From: a virus
Length of the DNA: 40,933 bases
Direction: 5' to 3' (one strand)
Virus genome (UHGV): UHGV-0179541
This document shows positions 1,189 to 15,349 of the stretch, piece by piece; the first letter of the stretch is position 1; each line of letters begins with the position of its first letter. The notes beneath the pieces were generated by a model, which saw nothing but the letters and a program-made list of their open reading frames with translations, had not been told where the DNA came from and made no database searches. A program made the position numbers and the translations under genes.

Positions 1189-1353
1189 TTACATGTTCTT
1201 GATGATCGCATCACCAAATTCTGAACATTTCAGCAGTTTAGCGCCTTCCATCAGACGCTCGAAGTCATAGGTTACGGTCTTCGCATTGATTGCGCCTTCC
1301 ATACCTTTAACAATCAGGTCTGCGGCTTCAGTCCAGCCCATATGGCGTAACAT
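1189..1353 (-). pseudogene. icdC: icdC: displaced 3' fragment of icd (last 54 codons plus stop) at the prophage/chromosome junction
   Basis: About 165 bp homologous to 40541..40705; translates to [54 protein letters not shown], identical to the C-terminus of the icd ORF at the window end; homology stops at 1353. Confidence 0.85.
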
Positions 1354-1494
1354 TAGATTTAGAAAATTATTATATCCAATTGAATTAAAACAATTTTATA
1401 CTTAACGAACATCTAAACTTGTTTTTTTACCTTCACCATAACTCGCTGATTTTGTATAGTTTACGTAGCGTTTTGATAACCACTTTATGGCAAA

Positions 1495-2187: not shown

Positions 2188-4077
2188 ATGAAATCCGAAA
2201 CGCTAACCATCCAGCAAATTTTCCAAAATCAACGACAATATCGTGTTCCATTCTATCAACGTGCCTACGTATGGACGCAACGAAACCAATGGTCAGCTTT
2301 GTTGGAGGATATCTTCGAAAAAGCACAGAGCCGACTTTCGGGAACAAAACCAACCCCTCATTTCCTCGGCGCGGTGGTGCTGGAACCTCAACTCAAAAAC
2401 AGCTTGTTAGGTGTAGATACCATACATATTATTGACGGCCAGCAACGTTTAACCACTCTTCAATATATTCTGGCATCCATTCGATTATCATTGCGTGCTA
2501 CAGGCCTTTCTGAACTGGAAGGGTTAGTATTGACTTGCTTGAAAAATACAAACGAAGCAACGATGAGAAATAAAAAGGTAGAATGCTTCAAACTGTGGCC
2601 AACTTTTCGAGATCAAACTCATTTTATTCAAAGTCTTAATGTTGATAATATTGACGATCTCCGTAATGTATTTTCTGATAGCTTCACGCAACATGGTACG
2701 TTACGTAAACATTTCAACCACCCGCCGTCACTAGAGGCATTATGGTTTTTTACTGAAGCCTTTATAAAATGGATTAAAATAGAAAAACACTCACCACAAG
2801 AAAATGCTGTAGCACTAATTGAGGCTGTCTTGACGGATCTGAAACTGGTAAGCATATTTCTCGAAGCTGAAGATGATGCCCAAATAATTTTTGAAACATT
2901 AAATGGGCGAGGAGCGGAACTTCATGCAACGGATCTTATTCGCAACTATATCTTTATGTGCGCTGAGCATGAAAATATTAATGCTATTGAATTATATGAA
3001 AATGAGTGGAAGATCTTTGAAGATAAATACTGGTCGGAAAAGCAACGCCGTGGACGTATTAATAAACCACGCATGGAGTGGCTTGTACATGCGACATTGC
3101 AATCAGAAAGGCAGCGTGAAATTGATCTGTCTCGCCTTTACAATGAGTATCGTGATTATGTAAGTAAGGACTTGCCTTCACAACGAGCAGATCTGCAAGT
3201 AAAGCGCCTCAAACAATATGCATCACAATATAAAGAATTGGTTGGTGGTTTTGGCACAACCCCCATCTCACACTTTAGACATCGCATCGCAGCCTATGAT
3301 GTGACGACACTCTATCCGCTTGCTTTGTTCATTTCGATAGCTAACATCGCCGATGATGAGAAAGCAGCCATGTATAATGATCTTGTCTCCTACGTAGTAC
3401 GAAGATCCGTATGTGGCCTGACGCCAAAGAATTACAACAATGTATTTATGAATGTATTGCGACACTTGTCTAAAACGGAAATTTCCAGTGTTGAGTTACG
3501 TAATATCCTCAATAGCTTAAATGGCGAAGCCTCACGTTGGCCTGGGGACTCAGAATTTCTCAACGCTTGCATCAATGCTCCACTTTATCCTGGCAGGCTC
3601 GACGCACCGAAAATGCGCTCAATGTTAACGGAACTTGAAAGAGAACTTTGTCGCCAAGTGAAGACAGAAAAGCCTGATGTTCCAAATCTTTCTAATCTCG
3701 ATATCGATCATCTTATGCCTCAAAGTTGGTATTCCTGTTGGCCTCTCGAAAATGGTCATATGGTGACAAATTCAGATGCTACGGTAATGAACCAAATTGT
3801 TCTGTCTGGAACCGATCTTACCCCTGAACAGCTACTGGTAAGGAAACGGCAACAAGCGATAGCTACGTTGGGAAATCTAACTTTGCTTAACCTTAGCGTA
3901 AACCGTTCCGTTCAGAATGCTGTATTTCTGAAAAAACGTGATGCTCTCATCGTCCATACCAATCTACGACTGAACATACCACTTATACTTAAGGATAAAT
4001 GGGATGAGAGTGAAATACTGGAGCGAGGTAAAAAGTTGGGGGAAATTGCATTGAAAGTATGGCCAAAATACGATTAA
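2188..4077 (+). CDS. DUF262/DUF1524 two-domain protein, GmrSD-family type IV (modification-dependent) restriction endonuclease-like
   Basis: N-terminal motifs VPFYQRAYVW and IIDGQQRLTTL (DUF262 / ParB-like signature DGQQR); C-terminal DIDHLMPQS region consistent with the DUF1524 His-Me finger; AT-richer than phage core. Confidence 0.75.
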   Translation: MKSETLTIQQIFQNQRQYRVPFYQRAYVWTQRNQWSALLEDIFEKAQSRLSGTKPTPHFLGAVVLEPQLKNSLLGVDTIHIIDGQQRLTTLQYILASIRLSLRATGLSELEGLVLTCLKNTNEATMRNKKVECFKLWPTFRDQTHFIQSLNVDNIDDLRNVFSDSFTQHGTLRKHFNHPPSLEALWFFTEAFIKWIKIEKHSPQENAVALIEAVLTDLKLVSIFLEAEDDAQIIFETLNGRGAELHATDLIRNYIFMCAEHENINAIELYENEWKIFEDKYWSEKQRRGRINKPRMEWLVHATLQSERQREIDLSRLYNEYRDYVSKDLPSQRADLQVKRLKQYASQYKELVGGFGTTPISHFRHRIAAYDVTTLYPLALFISIANIADDEKAAMYNDLVSYVVRRSVCGLTPKNYNNVFMNVLRHLSKTEISSVELRNILNSLNGEASRWPGDSEFLNACINAPLYPGRLDAPKMRSMLTELERELCRQVKTEKPDVPNLSNLDIDHLMPQSWYSCWPLENGHMVTNSDATVMNQIVLSGTDLTPEQLLVRKRQQAIATLGNLTLLNLSVNRSVQNAVFLKKRDALIVHTNLRLNIPLILKDKWDESEILERGKKLGEIALKVWPKYD

Positions 4078-4123: not shown

Positions 4124-4338
4124 AACTCACTATTAAATCCTTTAATTTGCATCAAGAACAGCACTGTCAGCCCTAGGCTCTCGGACTTTGTACCGCTTAT
4201 CTTGTCTTCAAAAATCAGCTCGCATCCTGCACAGTTAAACGCATTACGTTGTAGATCGATTTTCTGGTCATTTGTTGATACGCAAACATAGCCAATAAGC
4301 ATGGTAGCTCCCTCTGACAAAAGCAGGAATGATGCCAT
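4111..4338 (-). pseudogene. Truncated serine DNA invertase (Pin/Gin/Hin family), N-terminal 75 codons only
   Basis: MLIGYVCVSTNDQKIDLQRNAFNCAGCELIFEDKISGT matches the invertase N-terminus including the catalytic-serine region; frame ends after about 75 aa where a full invertase is about 190 aa. Confidence 0.75.
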
Positions 4339-4718
4339 TTTCTCGTTATTTCTGCATTTTCATAAACGTTGGTTTGGGAGAATTATCTCTGGCTGGCACT
4401 GCATCGGGTGTCATTGGTCTGAATGGGTATGTAACGATTCCGTTAATTATTTCAGGTTCCCGGAGAACACTGATTATTCAGTGGGGGCAGGCGAGATTTG
4501 GTGGGTCTGGTGGTGAAGATGCCGGATATCTTAATGATTTTCCTTTTGCCTTTCCGTCAGCATGTTATGGAATGATAGTTAGTCATGTGGGGCATACACC
4601 TTCAGGCGCAGGAATCCTGTCGGCTTCTGCAATTACATCAAATCAGTTCCGCGGTTTTTCAAGCATAGCGACTGCTGCAAATGCTGTATTAGGTCGTTAT
4701 ATCGCTATAGGGGGTTAA
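4329..4718 (+). CDS. Silent alternative tail-fibre C-terminal cassette (inverted orientation); ORF start not meaningful
   Basis: Shares the LIIQWG junction and 17-bp inverted repeat with the expressed tail-fibre gene; followed by its own Tfa gene. Confidence 0.5.
   Translation: MMPFSRYFCIFINVGLGELSLAGTASGVIGLNGYVTIPLIISGSRRTLIIQWGQARFGGSGGEDAGYLNDFPFAFPSACYGMIVSHVGHTPSGAGILSASAITSNQFRGFSSIATAANAVLGRYIAIGG
4470..4486. repeat. Left inverted repeat CTGATTATTCAGTGGGG of the tail-fibre inversion segment
   Basis: Exact reverse complement of 5768..5784. Confidence 0.8.
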
Positions 4719-4719
4719 T

Positions 4720-5157
4720 ATGTTTTATAGTCCATCATTAAACATTTTTGTGAATCCTGCGCTTAAGGATGATTACATTAATGCAAATTCATGGCCAGAT
4801 GATGCTCTGGCTGTCAGTGATGATGTTTATAATGAATTTGCAATCAATACGCCCCCATATGACAAAATTCGTGTTGCAGGAAAAAATGGATTACCCACAT
4901 GGGCACTAATACCTCCACCATCGCATGAAGAACTTATTCAACAGGCAGAATCAGAAAGGCAATTATTGCTTAATCAGGCCAACGAATACATGAACAGTAA
5001 ACAATGGCCCGGTAAAGCCGCTATTGGTCGTCTGAAAGACGAGGAACTGGCACTATATAATTTGTGGCTGGATTACCTGGACGCACTGGAACTGGTGGAT
5101 ACCTCCAGTGCTCCAGATATTGAATGGCCTACACCTCCGGTAACTCAGGCCAGCTAA
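4720..5157 (+). CDS. Tail fibre assembly protein (alternative cassette)
   Basis: 145 aa, Tfa-like C-terminus (DIEWPTPP), convergent with a second Tfa gene. Confidence 0.7.
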   Translation: MFYSPSLNIFVNPALKDDYINANSWPDDALAVSDDVYNEFAINTPPYDKIRVAGKNGLPTWALIPPPSHEELIQQAESERQLLLNQANEYMNSKQWPGKAAIGRLKDEELALYNLWLDYLDALELVDTSSAPDIEWPTPPVTQAS

Positions 5158-5554
5158 TCTCAGGAGCCGTCGAAGTGTCGACGGCTTTTACTTCTTTTTT
5201 GTAGTCCATCCAGGCGGATAGTTTTTCTTTATCTGTACTGCTGATATCACCAAGCATTAATTCCACTCGCCAGTCAGCTGTGACATTATCGGCATGAGCA
5301 AGTAACTGCATTCGCTGATTTTCAGCACGTGCGACATAATCAATCGCCGGAGATTTCAGTACCGGTAAACCATTTTCATCTGACGTGATTAATTTACCCC
5401 CTTCCTGCTGTCCGGCAATTAATTCATTGTATAAGTCTGTACTTATCTCAACAATGTCAGCAGGCATGTCGCTGTTTATACCATCAAAGAAAAAACCATT
5501 AGTCGATTTTGAGAAATAAATCATAGATATACCTATACACCGATTGCTACCCAA
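5129..5554 (-). CDS. Tail fibre assembly protein (expressed cassette)
   Basis: 141 aa, Tfa-like (EISWPELP), immediately downstream of the tail-fibre gene. Confidence 0.7.
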
Positions 5555-6189
5555 AAACAGGACCTTTCATATTTGACAATTTCTCCCTGAGATATACCGC
5601 CAACAATTATATAGAACTGTGATTTGGTGATATCAGAACAGTTCGCAATGCCCATTGCAGATATACCAGCCAACGACGTTGTATGTGGCACAGCCAACAG
5701 CGCAAGTGAACGATTTGGGAATGTTACCGGGTAAGTCACCGTATAGTTTGATGCTCCACTGACAATACCCCACTGAATAATCAGACCTGAAGGGAGTTTT
5801 TGAAAACCCGTTGATGAAAGTGAACTGGCAAACGCCGCCATATCCGGAATTTGGTTTTGCCCGTTACCTACATTCCGTTTTGCCGCTTCTCCCAAACCAA
5901 GGTTTTGAAGAGCCGTTTTCACCGTGCCGTCCGATTTGATATCGCCAAACGGATTTTTGCGACTTAACAGCAGCGCACGAAGCGCGGTAAGCAGCTGGTC
6001 ATGCCGCCCCTTCTCCAGGCTGGCACCGGATGCCTCCACCACGCTGCAGAGCTCTTCCTGCAACATGTCAAAGTAGTCATCATCCAGATCGGTGGCAGGC
6101 GTGCCGGTCTGGGGGTTACCACGGGTAAAACCGTTCTTACCCGCGCCGAACTTATCCTTCTGCGCGGTTTTCGTGTCTATACGATGCAT
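5533..6189 (-). CDS. Tail fibre protein (short, e14 Stf-like)
   Basis: 218 aa following the baseplate genes; C-terminal half begins at the inverted repeat. Confidence 0.65.
5768..5784. repeat. Right inverted repeat of the tail-fibre inversion segment (inside the tail-fibre gene)
   Basis: CCCCACTGAATAATCAG, reverse complement of 4470..4486; encodes LIIQWG in the tail-fibre frame. Confidence 0.8.
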
Positions 6190-11250: not shown

Positions 11251-13086
11251 TTACCTGCCAAAGCGCGTATAGCCAACATCATGGCTGACATCAAAACCGC
11301 TGGATCGCGTTTCCATAACCCGCATACCCGGAGGCGAATTCACAAAAGAGACCTTGATCTCACCATCAACTTTTGGCGCAGTAGCTTTATTAATCATGAA
11401 GGGATTCGGGCCTGTGGCACCGGAGGCGTTGTTTGACTGAGCCAGATCTACCGCCGGATAAGGTGTGTATCCCCGTGCCGGTATTCCCGTCCCATAAGCA
11501 TCATAAGCACCCGCGCCCCACTGCGCAGAGTTAATGGCATCGACCGTGTCTCCGGAACTGTCGGTAAACCACTCAATAATTGGCTTCAGCTTGTCCCACA
11601 TATCCTGAAACCACTTAACAACCGGCCCCCAGTTATTGATCACCATCCCCAGCGGCGACCAGGCAAAAACTTTCTTAAGGAGTTCCCAGCCAGCCTCAAA
11701 ATAAGGACCAATGGTTTCCCAGAGCTTCTTGAAATAAGGTCCGACAACATCCCAGTTAGTGATAATTAATCCCGCAGCCAGGGCTATCGCCGTCGCAATC
11801 ATGCCAATCGGCGTCATCGACATGATCCTGCTGACAATGCTGATGGCACTGCCCACGCCCATCAATCCCAGTTTCAGAATCGCAAGACCGGCAGCAAGCC
11901 CGACGACGCCGCGAATAACCCAGGGATTTTCATCCGCAAACTTCGTGAATTTTTCCCCCAACTCCCCCAGCCATTGCGTGATATTTTTAGCGTCACCAGA
12001 AAATGCGCCGCCAATAGCTGCAAGACCGTTAGTTGCGGTCCCCGTCATTGCCTCCCACAGGTTGGACAGCGTACCAAGCTGTGCCTGAACACGTTTATTC
12101 AGGCTGGCCTGTTTATGCATCTTCTGCTGGATCTGATCGTAACCATCCTTTCCTTTATCGATCAGAGCATTGACCACCTGAAGGGTTTCGGCATCATCAC
12201 CAAATATTGCCTTAAGTACACCGGTTCGCTTAACGTCGGTCAGTTTTCGCAGCTTTGCCAGTTGCCTGAACATGTTATCAAGACCGCCAAAACTCCCTTT
12301 GCCATCAGTAAAATCGAGCTGTACCCCGAGTTTCTGGCGGGCCATGATTTTATTGACGTCCCTGATTTTCTTAACGCTTAATCCGGACTGGATAACTTTT
12401 CGCAGGGCATTACCTGCCGACTCCCCGTTCATCCCCATCTGATCCATCATGACACTGATGGGGGCAAGACTCTGTGCAGCCTGAAGACCGTCCTTATTCA
12501 CCATCTTCAGAACAGAGCTGGTTTTAGTGAAGAATGACAGCATGTTGGTGTCGTCAACGCCCAGATAAAACGCCTTCTGAATTGTGTCGAACAGCCCCAT
12601 CATGTCTTCTGAGGCCGTTCCGGTAGCATCCTGCATCTTTGCGGCAAACTCGGCAGCCGCTTCCGGTGTTTTTTTCAGTTGTACCGCAAGATAAGCTGTC
12701 GCTTTACCCACACCACCCAGAATGTTTTCTGCCGGGATCCCCTGACGCACCAGCATCTGCATCATGTTCTGGAAATCAGCCGTTGTACCGGGTAGCTGGT
12801 TACCCAGGCCAATAGCCAGTTTATTGATGTCCTGAAAGCTCTTTCCGACCTCACCGTTCGCATCCATCATGGCAACTTTCAGCCCGGTGGCGGCGTTTTC
12901 CTGATCGGCATAAGATTTCAGGGAAAGCGTCAGACCCGCAGCCAGTCCGCCACCAAGCGCCAGCCCACCCTGTGACGCTTCTTCCGCCTGGCGTTTAAAT
13001 CCCCGGATTTTCTTTTGCATTTTCGACAGCGCGGGAGAAAGCCTGTCGACACCGGTGATCAACGCCTTAAGCTCAAATTCAGCCAT
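11251..13086 (-). CDS. Tail tape measure protein
   Basis: 611 aa, Ala/Gly-rich with hydrophobic C-terminal segment, between chaperone and baseplate genes. Confidence 0.75.
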   Translation of the reverse strand: MAEFELKALITGVDRLSPALSKMQKKIRGFKRQAEEASQGGLALGGGLAAGLTLSLKSYADQENAATGLKVAMMDANGEVGKSFQDINKLAIGLGNQLPGTTADFQNMMQMLVRQGIPAENILGGVGKATAYLAVQLKKTPEAAAEFAAKMQDATGTASEDMMGLFDTIQKAFYLGVDDTNMLSFFTKTSSVLKMVNKDGLQAAQSLAPISVMMDQMGMNGESAGNALRKVIQSGLSVKKIRDVNKIMARQKLGVQLDFTDGKGSFGGLDNMFRQLAKLRKLTDVKRTGVLKAIFGDDAETLQVVNALIDKGKDGYDQIQQKMHKQASLNKRVQAQLGTLSNLWEAMTGTATNGLAAIGGAFSGDAKNITQWLGELGEKFTKFADENPWVIRGVVGLAAGLAILKLGLMGVGSAISIVSRIMSMTPIGMIATAIALAAGLIITNWDVVGPYFKKLWETIGPYFEAGWELLKKVFAWSPLGMVINNWGPVVKWFQDMWDKLKPIIEWFTDSSGDTVDAINSAQWGAGAYDAYGTGIPARGYTPYPAVDLAQSNNASGATGPNPFMINKATAPKVDGEIKVSFVNSPPGMRVMETRSSGFDVSHDVGYTRFGR

Positions 13087-13261
13087 GTGTGCGTTTCTCC
13101 TGCTCTATCCTGTTTGCCTGACTGACCAGCAAGGGAATTTCACTGATCGGCATATTCAGCAATTCGAAGGGATTAATGCGCCAGTAACTGGCGCAGTCAA
13201 AGAAGCGATCAGTGAGGTATTCAGCCGTCAGGCCTGGAGGAAAAAACCGGCCACAAGCCAC
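13079..13261 (-). CDS. -1 frame extension of the tail assembly chaperone (GT-like frameshift product)
   Basis: Open in the -1 frame from the U UUU UUC heptamer (plus 13240..13246) to just before the tape measure start; the -1 reading FFPPGLTAEY matches this ORF. Confidence 0.6.
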   Translation of the reverse strand: MACGRFFPPGLTAEYLTDRFFDCASYWRINPFELLNMPISEIPLLVSQANRIEQEKRTHG

Positions 13262-13497
13262 GCCGCTGCATTCAGGTCTGCCGGAGACATCTGGTCGACA
13301 GAGCTTTGCGGCACTTTCGCCAGCCGCACAATGTATTTCGACACCACATGCGCCAGAAGTCTGACGGATTCATCCTGATTCATCTGGTAGGGATACCCCA
13401 GCTCGCGGACATCCTTCCCGGTGGGTTCATCAAACTCCAGTACGGAGAGTGTCTCACCATGAGCGATAATCGGTTTCTTTAACTCAAGCTCTTTCAT
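13228..13497 (-). CDS. Tail assembly chaperone (Mu gp41-like)
   Basis: 89 aa between tube and tape measure genes; ends with slippery heptamer. Confidence 0.6.
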   Translation of the reverse strand: MKELELKKPIIAHGETLSVLEFDEPTGKDVRELGYPYQMNQDESVRLLAHVVSKYIVRLAKVPQSSVDQMSPADLNAAAWLVAGFFLQA

Positions 13498-13853
13498 TAC
13501 TGGTAATCCCCTTCTTCACCGTGGAACTCAAGATCAACCGTGCCTTCTTCGGCATTATGGTTCGCTTCTCCGTGCAGCCAGGCGGACGACAATACATAGA
13601 CCTGACCGTTCGCCAGCTCGGCAGTGATGGTCATCTCATCAGACGAGGTGATTTTGCTCACCGGAAAATTCTTCGGCACCTTGAAGGTCCCTTTGACATA
13701 AGGCGCACGGTGAGTTTCCTTGCGGTCCACTGAACCGTCCAGGCCGATGATGTCATCATTGACCGTCCTGTTCATGGGCACCTCAATGCCGCCGGTCAGC
13801 GATAGCTGCTGACCGTCAATTTTGAAATAACAGGTTCCCCCGATACGGGCCAT
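13497..13853 (-). CDS. Tail tube protein
   Basis: 118 aa directly after the sheath gene. Confidence 0.7.
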   Translation of the reverse strand: MARIGGTCYFKIDGQQLSLTGGIEVPMNRTVNDDIIGLDGSVDRKETHRAPYVKGTFKVPKNFPVSKITSSDEMTITAELANGQVYVLSSAWLHGEANHNAEEGTVDLEFHGEEGDYQ

Positions 13854-15349
13854 TATGCAGACTCCTCTGAATACTGAAGACGGAACTGGTTAACCACGGC
13901 AAAAACACGCAACTGGTTAACATAGTCAGGCGGGAACAGCGTGTTCAGGCGGTTCGGATCGCTGGCATCACGCTCCACAACCAGGTACTGCTTAAACAGT
14001 TCGTAGTTTTCCACGATCCCCGCACGCTCAAGCTGACGGTAGGTTGCCAGCAGTTCCCCTTTGATTACCGCCGGGGTGACAATCGCCTGACCGGGACCAA
14101 AACGGGTACCGTCGCTGGCAAGCTTGTGACGCCCGTACTTACTGGTAATGACGGATTTCAGTTTGCGCAGTACATACGCACTGGTATGCAGCGTCTCGCT
14201 GTCGAGGTAGCTGTTATCCGCAACCCCGTAAGCGTTTTTCCTGTACGTGGTGACATCACGCTGAATGCGCAGCACCCCGCTTTCGACATACGCCGTTGCC
14301 ACGCCATGAGACAGCAGGGTCTGCTGCTCGGTCATCGTGAACCGTTTCCCCTTCGGCGCAGGCAGCATACCCACCAGCTCACCGGTCTGCGTGGGACGTG
14401 CCGGATCGTTGCGGATAAACACCGCTGCGCGGGCGGTACGGCTTGCCGCCAGCTCGTCGGCAGGCGTCTGGGTCTCTTTTTCGTACCCCGCCAGGGTAAT
14501 GTGCTGCTGGTTAAACTGGTCACCTGCGGTCACCAGTTCTGACAGCGTGCCGATCTTTGCCGTATACACATGACCATACAGCTGACGCGCATAGCTCCAG
14601 CGACCGCTGGTATCGTTCATCTCGGTCACCAGCGTGTTAACGGAGGCCGTGTCGTTGAACGGCAGGCCGATATAATCAAACGGCTCATCCGCCATTGCAG
14701 CCACCGCGCCGGTGAGAACAGGAGAGCCCGTTCCGGCGGTCCCCGTCGCCACGGCAATCTGTACGCCCGCAGGCAGCACTTCGCCCCCACCAAAGCCGTA
14801 GTAATTGAGGCTGACAGGAATTTCATTCCCGCAAAGCCCCTTATGACGCGCGGTCAGTGTGACCACGCCAGCCGAAGATGAGGCCGTAAACGGCAGGGCC
14901 GGAACGGCATTGATGGCATCCTGGATACTGCTGGCAATCGTCGTGACGTTATCGCCGTTAGTCACCGGTGCCTGCACGCGGGTACGTCCCACATAAACAT
15001 TCACCGTGCCGGTTTCGGTTGCCGCCCCGGTCACCGTCAGCGTAACTGTTGCCGCCGCGCCCGTGGATTCAGGAACGGCAATTACATACAGTTCACCAAA
15101 CGGGTCGGTCTGGCGATAAGCCTCGACCATACGCGCCAGCTGACTTCCCGCACCACAAATCTGGCGTGCATAGTCTGCCGACGGCATCAGCACCAGACTG
15201 TTGGCAACAATCTCTGCACCGTTATTGGCATGACCAATCAGCAGCGATGCTCCGCTGTCCTGTGCAGTATTCGCCGCCTGGTTATCCATTTCCGCATAAA
15301 ACAGCGGAACCAGCGTATTCGACGGAATGGTGTTAAAGCTTATCGTCAT
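13853..15349 (-). CDS. Contractile tail sheath protein
   Basis: 498 aa, Mu gpL-like, followed by tube gene. Confidence 0.75.
   Translation of the reverse strand: MTISFNTIPSNTLVPLFYAEMDNQAANTAQDSGASLLIGHANNGAEIVANSLVLMPSADYARQICGAGSQLARMVEAYRQTDPFGELYVIAVPESTGAAATVTLTVTGAATETGTVNVYVGRTRVQAPVTNGDNVTTIASSIQDAINAVPALPFTASSSAGVVTLTARHKGLCGNEIPVSLNYYGFGGGEVLPAGVQIAVATGTAGTGSPVLTGAVAAMADEPFDYIGLPFNDTASVNTLVTEMNDTSGRWSYARQLYGHVYTAKIGTLSELVTAGDQFNQQHITLAGYEKETQTPADELAASRTARAAVFIRNDPARPTQTGELVGMLPAPKGKRFTMTEQQTLLSHGVATAYVESGVLRIQRDVTTYRKNAYGVADNSYLDSETLHTSAYVLRKLKSVITSKYGRHKLASDGTRFGPGQAIVTPAVIKGELLATYRQLERAGIVENYELFKQYLVVERDASDPNRLNTLFPPDYVNQLRVFAVVNQFRLQYSEESA

What the first reader, a model, noticed from the sequence alone, without database searches (positions are those of the whole stretch)
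13228..13261. Programmed -1 frameshift in the tail assembly chaperone
The chaperone gene ends just after a canonical slippery heptamer U UUU UUC (plus 13240..13246). Shifting -1 there opens a frame (FFPPGLTAEY...) that runs for about 55 more codons and stops just before the tape measure start. This is the lambda G/GT arrangement in a Mu-type tail module.
Basis: seen in the sequence. Interest (0 to 1): 0.45.

Follow-up and report, generated by a model that had tools for sequence, protein, structure and literature searches.

The report
Frameshifted tail chaperone, SfV-like prophage
The small tail-assembly chaperone gene of this SfV-like E. coli prophage carries a strongly conserved slippery site from which a few ribosomes shift back one base to make a longer second protein; this is the ordinary lambda G/GT and P2 E/E+E' trick, real here but missing from public annotations.

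Summary
All genes lie on the minus strand. An 89-aa tail assembly chaperone (13497..13228, Pfam Phage_TAC_7) contains U_UUU_UUC (13246..13240) in the correct X_XXY_YYZ register, three codons before its stop. After a -1 slip the frame stays open for 53 codons, giving a 139-aa product. Its UGA (13081..13079) overlaps the tape-measure ATG (ATGGCTGA), so it ends just after that start, not before it.

A bare TTTTTTC means nothing: the window has 23. The case rests on comparison. All 35 distinct homologs with an intact chaperone gene, out to a Derxia prophage and a Methylococcales MAG, keep U_UUU_UU[C/U] at the same Phe-Phe position. The preceding codon always ends in T although its amino acid varies. 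The -1 ORF shows a coding substitution pattern and a conserved YWRINPxEL...RIxxE motif. In 21 of 28 relatives it has no start codon at all.

No stimulatory RNA structure was found. P2 E/E+E' is the closest match (91/142 aa, GGT TTT TTG at the homologous position); Mu itself shifts -2. No record examined annotates the fusion. This is a new member of a well-known kind and of low interest.

The parts
13228..13497 (-). Zero-frame tail assembly chaperone gene (G/E-like), 89 aa, stop TGA at 13230..13228
   Evidence: ORF list and translation. Pfam PF10109 Phage_TAC_7, E=6.8e-15, 55.3 bits against a cutoff of 25. phrog_166 tail protein. RefSeq names it 'phage tail assembly protein'. The AF2 model has pLDDT 93.7, and its best BFVD matches are tape-measure/tail assembly chaperones, including Mu FS-gp41.
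13240..13246 (-). Slippery heptamer U_UUU_UUC in X_XXY_YYZ register (codons GGU UUU UUC), 3 codons before the zero-frame stop
   Evidence: The site is kept as T_TTT_TT[C/T] at the same Phe-Phe position in 35 of 35 distinct homologs. The preceding codon is GGT, CGT, AAT, AGT or GTT, so it always ends in T, and the first Phe codon is TTT in 35 of 35. The T run is 6 long in 80 of 80 near-identical IMG/VR loci.
13079..13240 (-). -1 frame extension (T/E'-like domain): 53 sense codons plus TGA (13081..13079), entered by re-reading C13240
   Evidence: phrog_32181, E=6.6e-41. Variable columns by codon position 1/2/3 are 25/14/39 of 47, and amino-acid identity is highest in this frame. Invariant residues across the family include W106, N109, P110, R130, I131 and E134. 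There is no start codon in this frame in 21 of 28 relatives. Weak but significant profile similarity to P2 E' and to the Mu -2 extension.
13079..13497 (-). Predicted trans-frame product (GT / E+E'-like), 139 aa: join(13497..13240, 13240..13079)
   Evidence: Constructed. It is colinear with P2 E+E' (hhalign E=0.0029 over 119 columns). No database entry annotates it.
11251..13086 (-). Tape measure protein gene, 611 aa; its ATG (13086..13084) overlaps the stop of the -1 product (ATGGCTGA)
   Evidence: Pfam PF10145 and phrog_28/17727; sequence read.
13497..13853 (-). Tail tube gene immediately upstream (its stop overlaps the chaperone start)
   Evidence: Pfam PF10618 Tail_tube, E=2.4e-33.
13853..15349 (-). 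Tail sheath gene (Mu gpL-like)
   Evidence: Pfam Phage_sheath_1, _1C and domII; phrog_165.

Best explanation
This is a programmed -1 ribosomal frameshift of the lambda G/GT and P2 E/E+E' class, in the tail assembly chaperone gene of an SfV-like contractile-tail prophage.

Most ribosomes translate the 89-aa chaperone and stop at UGA 13230..13228. When tRNA-Phe occupies both the P site (UUU) and the A site (UUC) on U_UUU_UUC, a small fraction slip one base 5', re-pair on UUU_UUU, and read 53 further codons in the -1 frame. The result is a 139-aa protein with the same N-terminus plus a C-terminal T/E'-like domain, ending at a UGA that overlaps the tape-measure start codon.

The function is inferred from lambda and P2. 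The short form and the shared N-terminal part bind and keep the tape measure protein soluble. The extra domain recruits tube subunits to start polymerisation. A fixed low ratio of long to short form is needed, and neither form stays in the virion.

Shown here: the gene identity, the site, its register, the open -1 frame, and purifying selection on both. Inferred: that slippage actually occurs, that it is ribosomal, its efficiency (probably between 0.1% and a few percent, with no stimulator detected), and the assembly role.
For: The chaperone is identified by Pfam PF10109 above the gathering score, and the gene order is sheath, tube, chaperone, tape measure. The predicted fold matches viral tape-measure/tail assembly chaperones, including Mu FS-gp41. 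The heptamer is in the correct register, and the -1 frame is open for exactly the interval up to the tape-measure start.

The comparative evidence is as follows. Seven phage records at 71-99% nucleotide identity or with a divergent allele, and a one-genome-per-species scan, all keep T_TTT_TT[C/T] at the same Phe-Phe position. Across 35 distinct sequences the codon before Phe-Phe always ends in T (GGT 26, CGT 3, AAT 3, AGT 2, GTT 1), although the amino acid changes and the adjacent Ala codon uses all four synonymous forms. The first Phe codon is TTT in 35 of 35.

The -1 ORF has a coding substitution pattern: 25/14/39 variable columns of 47 at codon positions 1/2/3. Amino-acid identity is 0.74 in that frame against 0.43 and 0.48 in the others at 71% nucleotide identity. 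Residues conserved across the whole family are shown. In 21 of 28 relatives there is no ATG, GTG or TTG in the -1 frame upstream of the site, and none of the rest has an SD-like sequence.

P2 E/E+E', whose -1 frameshift site is annotated in the P2 RefSeq record and attributed to Christie et al. 2002 and Xu et al. 2004 in PMC3091744, has GGT TTT TTG at the homologous position, products of 91 and 142 aa, and the same stop/ATG overlap. U_UU.U_UU.Y belongs to the frameshift-prone class in E. coli; UUUUUUC measured 0.12% unstimulated and up to 7.6% with a pseudoknot (PMC4066793).
Against: There is no direct evidence that the fusion protein is made. No public protein entry is a genuine fusion: the few full-length hits are indel-ridden singleton contigs. 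No stimulatory element was found. The 50 nt after the heptamer fold no better than shuffles (z=+0.7), there is no SD-like sequence upstream (read directly), and RNAalifold finds no conserved structure near the site in either subgroup. The unstimulated reporter efficiency of UUUUUUC is low at 0.12%. Sequence alone cannot separate ribosomal slippage from RNA polymerase slippage on the T6 run, because both give the same protein. The -1 extension matches no Pfam or NCBIfam family, so its homology to P2 E' rests on weak profile scores.
Confidence: 0.85

Rival explanations
1. The same 139-aa protein is made mainly by transcriptional slippage. RNA polymerase adds one extra U on the T6 run (T7 in the other allele), producing a minority of mRNAs in which the two ORFs are in frame.
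For: The site is a homopolymer run whose length is extended by the conserved T at the preceding wobble position, and a longer run would also favour polymerase slippage. A weak terminator-like stem (13260..13248) lies directly before the run. The protein product would be identical (GFFPPGL), so none of the comparative data separates the two routes.
Against: Six Ts is shorter than the runs (about 8-9 or more) that are usually productive for bacterial RNA polymerase slippage; this rests on general knowledge reviewed in PMC5009743. The upstream stem is weak (5 pairs, two of them G-U). By inspection of the sequences printed it is not kept in SfV, EPP-1 or AH07, and such matches are at chance frequency (2 found against 1.2 expected). 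The homologous P2 site and the analogous lambda site are attributed to ribosomal frameshifting (PMC3091744, PMC5009743). The run is always in the X_XXY_YYZ register with a Z base that lets tRNA-Phe re-pair.
Confidence: 0.08
2. The downstream ORF (13261..13079, 60 aa from a GTG) is an independent small gene with its own initiation, as some records annotate it.
For: A GTG at 13261..13259 opens a 60-aa ORF. One phage record and 10 protein clusters call it a separate hypothetical protein.
Against: There is no SD-like sequence before the GTG. In 21 of 28 relatives the -1 frame has no ATG, GTG or TTG between the upstream stop and the slip site, yet the downstream peptide is conserved. Conservation of the peptide begins exactly at the Phe-Phe slip site.
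Confidence: 0.02
3. Nothing is programmed. The heptamer is a chance Phe-Phe codon pair, the 141-nt interval is a spacer, and the open -1 frame is accidental or reflects a sequencing or pseudogene frameshift.
For: TTTTTTC is common in the window, at 23 copies. In-frame slippery heptamers are frequent, at 70. Annotation pipelines leave the interval empty.
Against: The T run is 6 long in 80 of 80 IMG/VR loci, and the region is present in 919 of 5426 complete E. coli genomes, so it is not a sequencing error. The interval evolves as a protein in the -1 frame, whereas the other two frames contain stops. The site and ORF are conserved down to about 35-40% chaperone identity, including in a beta-proteobacterial Derxia genome.
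Confidence: 0.02

Closest known systems
Bacteriophage P2 E / E+E' (-1 frameshift at TTTTTTG; Christie et al. 2002 and Xu et al. 2004, as cited in PMC3091744)
   Same: Both are in Pfam family PF10109. Both belong to contractile-tail phages, with the gene directly before the tape-measure gene. Product sizes are nearly the same, 91/142 aa against 89/139 aa. The slip site is at the homologous position (...VGF, GGT TTT TTN). The fusion stop overlaps the tape-measure ATG in both. No downstream hairpin is present in either (PMC3091744). The extension aligns colinearly (DVAxxFHWPPSEL... against DCASYWRINPFEL...).
   Different: The last base of the heptamer differs: C here (or U in the sister allele), which keeps Phe-Phe, against G in P2 (Phe-Leu). 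Sequence identity is low (about 24-27%; hhalign E=0.0029). The rest of the tail module is Mu/SfV-type and not P2-type. The P2 frameshift has experimental support; this one does not.
Bacteriophage Mu gp41 / FS-gp41 (-2 frameshift)
   Same: The tail module type and gene order are the same: Mu L, M, gp41, gp42, N-like. The Pfam family name lists gp41. The predicted chaperone fold matches Mu FS-gp41 (E=0.014, probability 0.98). The extension shows weak similarity (7.5 bits, reached by 2 of 5000 shuffles).
   Different: Mu continues in the +1/-2 frame from CGGGGGCGA, and that frame closes within 2 codons here (PMC2628397, PMC5009743). Mu gp41 is longer (144 aa, 188 aa fused). hhalign against the whole Mu fusion is not significant (E=0.38).
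Bacteriophage lambda G / GT (-1 frameshift at G_GGA_AAG)
   Same: The logic is the same: two overlapping ORFs between the major tail gene and the tape-measure gene, a low-level -1 slip near the end of the first, a shared N-terminus, and a fixed product ratio needed for tail assembly (PMC5009743).
   Different: There is no detectable sequence homology. Lambda has a non-contractile tail and a different heptamer. The functional roles (tape-measure binding; T domain binding the tube protein) were shown only for lambda and are assumed here.

Membership tests
Frameshifted tail assembly chaperone pair (lambda G/GT, P2 E/E+E' class; Xu, Hendrix & Duda 2004) | The gene lies between the major tail/tube gene and the tape-measure gene | tested here: met
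   The order is sheath 15349..13853, tube 13853..13497, chaperone 13497..13228, tape measure 13086..11251, all on the minus strand, each with a Pfam identity.
Frameshifted tail assembly chaperone pair (lambda G/GT, P2 E/E+E' class; Xu, Hendrix & Duda 2004) | [quoted passage not shown] | tested here: met
   U_UUU_UUC lies at 13246..13240, in register with GGU UUU UUC, three codons before the stop. The motif is in the shift-prone class in E. coli (PMC4066793).
Frameshifted tail assembly chaperone pair (lambda G/GT, P2 E/E+E' class; Xu, Hendrix & Duda 2004) | An overlapping ORF in the shifted frame that extends to about the tape-measure start and has no initiation signal of its own | tested here: met
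   There are 53 codons in the -1 frame, ending 5 nt past the tape-measure ATG. No SD-like sequence is present, and 21 of 28 relatives have no start codon in that frame.
Frameshifted tail assembly chaperone pair (lambda G/GT, P2 E/E+E' class; Xu, Hendrix & Duda 2004) | The slip site and the shifted ORF are conserved among diverged relatives | tested here: met
   35 of 35 distinct intact homologs keep the heptamer. The shifted ORF has a coding substitution pattern and conserved residues.
Frameshifted tail assembly chaperone pair (lambda G/GT, P2 E/E+E' class; Xu, Hendrix & Duda 2004) | Both products are made in vivo at a fixed ratio and are required for tail assembly | not testable with these tools
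   This needs mass spectrometry or a western blot, plus slip-dead and fused mutants.
Pfam PF10109 Phage_TAC_7 (P2 gpE, Mu gp41, gp14) | The profile HMM match is above the gathering score | tested here: met
   55.3 bits against a cutoff of 25, E=6.8e-15, covering residues 4-86 of the protein and positions 2-78 of the 79-position model. All database homologs carry PF10109.
Pfam PF10109 Phage_TAC_7 (P2 gpE, Mu gp41, gp14) | The fold resembles other tail assembly chaperones | tested here: met
   The AF2 model has pLDDT 93.7. The best BFVD matches are tape-measure/tail assembly chaperones (E=2.5e-4, TM 0.72) and Mu FS-gp41 (probability 0.98). There is no solved-structure match (E at least 0.55), so the comparison is with predicted models only.
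P2 E'-type C-terminal extension | Sequence homology between the shifted-frame domain and P2 E' | tested here: inconclusive
   The extension hits no Pfam or NCBIfam family at E up to 10. hhalign of the whole fusion against P2 E+E' gives E=0.0029, colinear through the extension. The T-part HMM scores 6.3 bits against P2 E', a score reached by 4 of 5000 shuffles.
Mu-type -2 frameshift (gp41 / FS-gp41) | The continuing ORF is in the +1/-2 frame from a G-run site | tested here: not met
   Here the +1/-2 frame closes 2 codons after the chaperone stop, and the continuing frame is -1. Mu continues in +1/-2 at CGGGGGCGA.

The most novel reading that the evidence does not exclude
The long form might not be set by simple unstimulated ribosomal slippage. 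One possibility is that RNA polymerase slippage on the T6/T7 run supplies much of it. Another is that the 8-bp hairpin 44 nt downstream (13195..13177), whose synonymous sites are invariant in 12 of 14 SfV-type sequences, acts as an unusually distal modulator of frameshifting or of tape-measure translation. Either would be an atypical control of the chaperone ratio within the P2 E/E+E' family.
Probability: 0.1. Interest if true: 0.4.

Novelty: new member of a known kind. Interest (0 to 1): 0.2.

Why it matters
The main consequence is for annotation. This prophage type is present in about 17% of complete E. coli genomes (919 of 5426) and in the serotype-converting Shigella phages SfV, SfII, SfI and SfIV. 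Every record examined either leaves a 141-nt gap or calls a spurious 60-aa hypothetical protein there, so a protein likely to be essential for tail assembly is missing from proteomes.

The family also shows cleanly that one homologous chaperone family keeps the two-product logic while changing the recoding event: -1 at U6C or U7 here, -1 at U6G in P2, and -2 at a G run in Mu. Conceptually it adds nothing beyond Xu, Hendrix and Duda (2004).

Tried and rejected
- **Bare motif statistics.** TTTTTTC occurs 23 times in the window, and 70 in-frame heptamers were counted. This says nothing about function, so I did not use it as evidence.
- **Stimulatory RNA.** The 50 nt after the site fold no better than shuffles. 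The 117-nt fold scores z=-3.8, but that comes from an 8-bp hairpin 44 nt downstream and a long-range stem starting 24 nt downstream. RNAalifold keeps only the hairpin, finds no covariation, and shows it broken in L103 and L106. The SfIV-type subgroup has no conserved structure. I rejected it as a canonical stimulator.
- **Rfam.** There were no meaningful matches.
- **Terminator-like stem before the T run.** It is weak, not conserved and at chance frequency.
- **Pfam and NCBIfam on the extension.** Nothing was found.
- **PDB sequence search with the fusion.** It returned only spurious light-harvesting-complex hits. Foldseek against PDB gave nothing with E below 0.5.
- **Full-length fusion proteins in the 5.8-billion-protein collection (P0011-P0016).** These proved to be singleton contigs with scattered indels, so they are assembly errors and not natural fusions.
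- **Structure prediction of the fusion.** A mixed alignment of G and T ORFs misaligned and was dropped.
- **Key papers.** Xu et al. 2004, Christie et al. 2002 and the SfV genome paper are not held in the library. I therefore could not check whether SfV was already listed in Xu et al.'s survey. The SfI paper does not mention a frameshift, and the search counted no occurrence of the word in the SfIV paper.

Full report
**What is in the sequence.** All genes around the finding are on the minus strand. The ORF 13497..13228 encodes an 89-aa protein (MKELELKK...AAWLVAGFFLQA*). Its last codons are GCC GGT TTT TTC CTC CAG GCC TGA. Re-reading from C13240 in the -1 frame gives PPGLTAEYLTDRFFDCASYWRINPFELLNMPISEIPLLVSQANRIEQEKRTHG*, which is 53 sense codons, so the trans-frame product is 139 aa. 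Its stop codon TGA (13081..13079) lies 5 nt past the A of the next gene's ATG (13086..13084), in the overlap ATGGCTGA. The +1/-2 frame closes two codons after the chaperone stop.

**What the genes are.** The 89-aa protein matches Pfam PF10109 (Phage_TAC_7, "tail assembly chaperone proteins E, or 41 or 14") at E=6.8e-15, 55.3 bits against a cutoff of 25. The upstream genes are a tail tube (PF10618) and a tail sheath. The downstream genes are a tape-measure protein (PF10145) and a Mu gpN-like DNA circularisation protein (PHROGs agree). An AlphaFold2 model of the 89-aa protein is confident (pLDDT 93.7). It has no solved-structure relative. Its best matches among predicted viral structures are tape-measure/tail assembly chaperones, including UniProt P0DJY4, "Probable tail assembly protein FS-gp41" of phage Mu.

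**Where the window comes from.** The window is about 99% identical to the Shigella and E. coli temperate myophages SfV, SfII, SfI and vB_EcoM-689R6. It is colinear with a prophage at the icd/e14 site of E. coli CFSAN061769. The region occurs in 919 of 5426 complete E. coli genomes.

**Chance.** The bare motif is uninformative. TTTTTTC occurs 23 times in the window against about 12 expected. ORFs of at least 80 aa contain 70 in-frame slippery heptamers. The case has to rest on position and conservation.

**Comparative evidence.** Three phages, SfV, Edwardsiella EPP-1 (73% nucleotide identity) and Pantoea AH07 (71%), keep TTTTTTC three codons before the stop, with a -1 ORF ending ..G* across the tape-measure ATG. 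Four others, SfIV, phiP27, ST64B and YeP1, carry a divergent chaperone allele (28-41% identity). They have TTTTTTT at the same Phe-Phe position, 8-21 codons before their zero-frame stop, again with a -1 ORF running to the tape-measure start.

A scan of one genome per species returned 38 loci. Every locus with an intact chaperone gene has the site, including a Derxia gummosa locus and a Methylococcales MAG. The only aberrant copies are degraded ones in insect endosymbionts.

Across 35 distinct sequences, the codon before Phe-Phe is GGT (26), CGT (3), AAT (3), AGT (2) or GTT (1). It always ends in T although the amino acid varies, whereas the adjacent Ala codon uses all four synonymous codons. 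The first Phe codon is TTT in 35 of 35, and the second is TTC (21) or TTT (14). This is selection on the nucleotide run itself.

The -1 extension evolves as a protein. Among 12 SfV-type sequences, 25/14/39 of 47 columns vary at codon positions 1/2/3. At 71% nucleotide identity the amino-acid identity is 0.74 in the -1 frame, against 0.43 and 0.48 in the other two frames, which contain stops. Across the whole family the extension keeps invariant residues in a motif (Y/F)W(R/K)(I/L)NP(L/F)E...A.RI..E.

In 21 of 28 relatives the -1 frame has no ATG, GTG or TTG between the upstream stop and the slip site, and no candidate start has an SD-like sequence. The extension can therefore only be reached by a change of frame. 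The T run is 6 long in 80 of 80 near-identical IMG/VR loci, which excludes a sequencing artefact.

**Stimulators.** None was found. The first 50 nt after the heptamer fold no better than shuffles (z=+0.7). The upstream sequence read contains no SD-like element. A 117-nt fold scores z=-3.8, but this comes from an 8-bp hairpin (UGCGCCAG-UUA-CUGGCGCA, 13195..13177) 44 nt downstream and from a long-range stem. RNAalifold retains only the hairpin. It is intact in 12 of 14 SfV-type sequences, shows no compensatory change, is broken in two sequences, and has no counterpart in the SfIV-type subgroup. That is too far away and too narrowly distributed to be a canonical stimulator. PMC3091744 reports that no downstream hairpin is present at the P2 E+E' site, so its absence does not weaken the case here. 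Sharma et al. (PMC4066793, supplementary Table S3) measured the following -1 frameshifting efficiencies in E. coli:

| Heptamer | No stimulator | IS911 stimulators | IS3 pseudoknot |
|---|---|---|---|
| UUUUUUC (this window) | 0.12% | 0.89% | 7.6% |
| UUUUUUU (sister allele) | 0.33% | 0.45% | 10.2% |
| UUUUUUG (P2) | 0.12% | 0.25% | 0.77% |
| GGGAAAG (lambda) | 0.28% | 3.8% | 43% |

The expected efficiency here is therefore low, which fits a chaperone pair that needs a large excess of the short form.

**Comparison with known systems.** P2 E/E+E' is the closest. The P2 RefSeq record annotates the -1 site. Rebuilding it gives E = 91 aa and E+E' = 142 aa, with GGT TTT TTG at the homologous ...VGF position and an E+E' stop overlapping the ATG of gene T (ATGAGTAA), point for point as here. 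hhalign of the family alignment against P2 E+E' is colinear over 119 columns at E=0.0029.

An HMM built from 23 diverse extensions scores P2 E' at 6.3 bits, a score reached by 4 of 5000 shuffles. It scores the Mu extension at 7.5 bits, reached by 2 of 5000 shuffles. Both align at the expected position. The extension hits no Pfam or NCBIfam family, so its homology is probable but weakly supported.

Mu, whose tail module this resembles, continues in the +1/-2 frame from CGGGGGCGA, consistent with the reported -2 frameshift (PMC2628397, PMC5009743). The element therefore works like lambda G/GT and is a homolog of P2 E/E+E', but it does not share Mu's recoding event.

**State of annotation and literature.** No phage or RefSeq record examined has a joined CDS. 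The interval is either left empty or, in one record, called a 60-aa hypothetical protein. In the protein collection the -1 ORF appears in only 10 clusters, all named hypothetical. All curated chaperone entries are the 89-aa form. The few full-length hits are indel-ridden singleton contigs. The SfI genome paper does not mention a frameshift, and the search counted no occurrence of the word in the SfIV paper. Xu et al. 2004 and the SfV genome paper could not be read, so prior mention of SfV cannot be excluded.

**Mechanism and rivals.** The best explanation (confidence 0.85) is tandem -1 ribosomal slippage of two tRNA-Phe on U_UUU_UUC, giving a minor 139-aa GT/E+E'-like product beside the major 89-aa chaperone. 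The assembly roles are inferred from lambda and P2.

Transcriptional slippage on the T run would give the identical protein and cannot be excluded from sequence (0.08). The run is short for that, and the stem before it is weak and not conserved. Independent initiation of the downstream ORF is contradicted. Chance or error is contradicted.

**Verdict.** This is an unannotated new member of a thoroughly known kind, and its interest is low.

Noticed in passing
window 13177..13195 (-): A perfect 8-bp hairpin (UGCGCCAG-UUA-CUGGCGCA) lies inside the -1 extension, where it encodes CASYWR, 44 nt after the heptamer. The stem, including its synonymous positions, is invariant in 12 of 14 SfV-type sequences while the loop varies. 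There is no covariation, it is broken in L103 and L106, and it is absent from the SfIV-type allele. Its function is unknown.
   Followed up: partly
window 13079..13086 (-): The stop of the -1 product overlaps the tape-measure start (ATGGCTGA). The same overlap recurs in most relatives (...HG* or ...NG*) and in P2 (ATGAGTAA). The tape-measure SD (AGGAG) lies inside the conserved RIEQE coding stretch. This suggests translational coupling, which was not tested.
   Followed up: partly
L123, L125, L127 (Ca. Pantoea bathycoeliae and Arsenophonus endosymbiont genomes): The copies of this chaperone locus in insect endosymbionts are broken, with upstream indels or stops, although the T7 run persists. 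These look like decaying prophage remnants.
   Followed up: no
P0011-P0016 (public protein collection): Apparent single-frame chaperone fusions of 107-139 aa are singleton contigs with indels scattered around homopolymers. They are assembly errors that mimic a fused gene.
   Followed up: yes
window 13248..13260 (-): A weak terminator-like stem (UGGCU-UGU-GGCCG) directly precedes the T run. It is not conserved in relatives, and such matches are at chance frequency.
   Followed up: yes
window about 4159..6189 (L131 27332..29362): Two oppositely oriented sets of gp53-like tail fibre tip and tail fibre assembly genes lie next to a truncated recombinase gene. The layout looks like a Mu G-segment or e14 P-segment type invertible host-range cassette whose invertase is now partial.
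   Followed up: no
window about 2188..4077 (L131 29444..31333) and about 1189..1356: A 629-aa DUF262 protein gene sits at the prophage end next to a partial icd duplication. This marks the prophage as integrated at the icd/e14 site, and the DUF262 gene could be a defence-type cargo gene.
   Followed up: no
L006, L007, L008 (SfIV, phiP27, ST64B) and L110-L124: In the sister allele the zero-frame chaperone continues for 21 codons past the slip site (26 in L115, 15 in L116), so that stretch is dual-coding in the 0 and -1 frames. In the window's allele the overlap is only 3 codons.
   Followed up: partly
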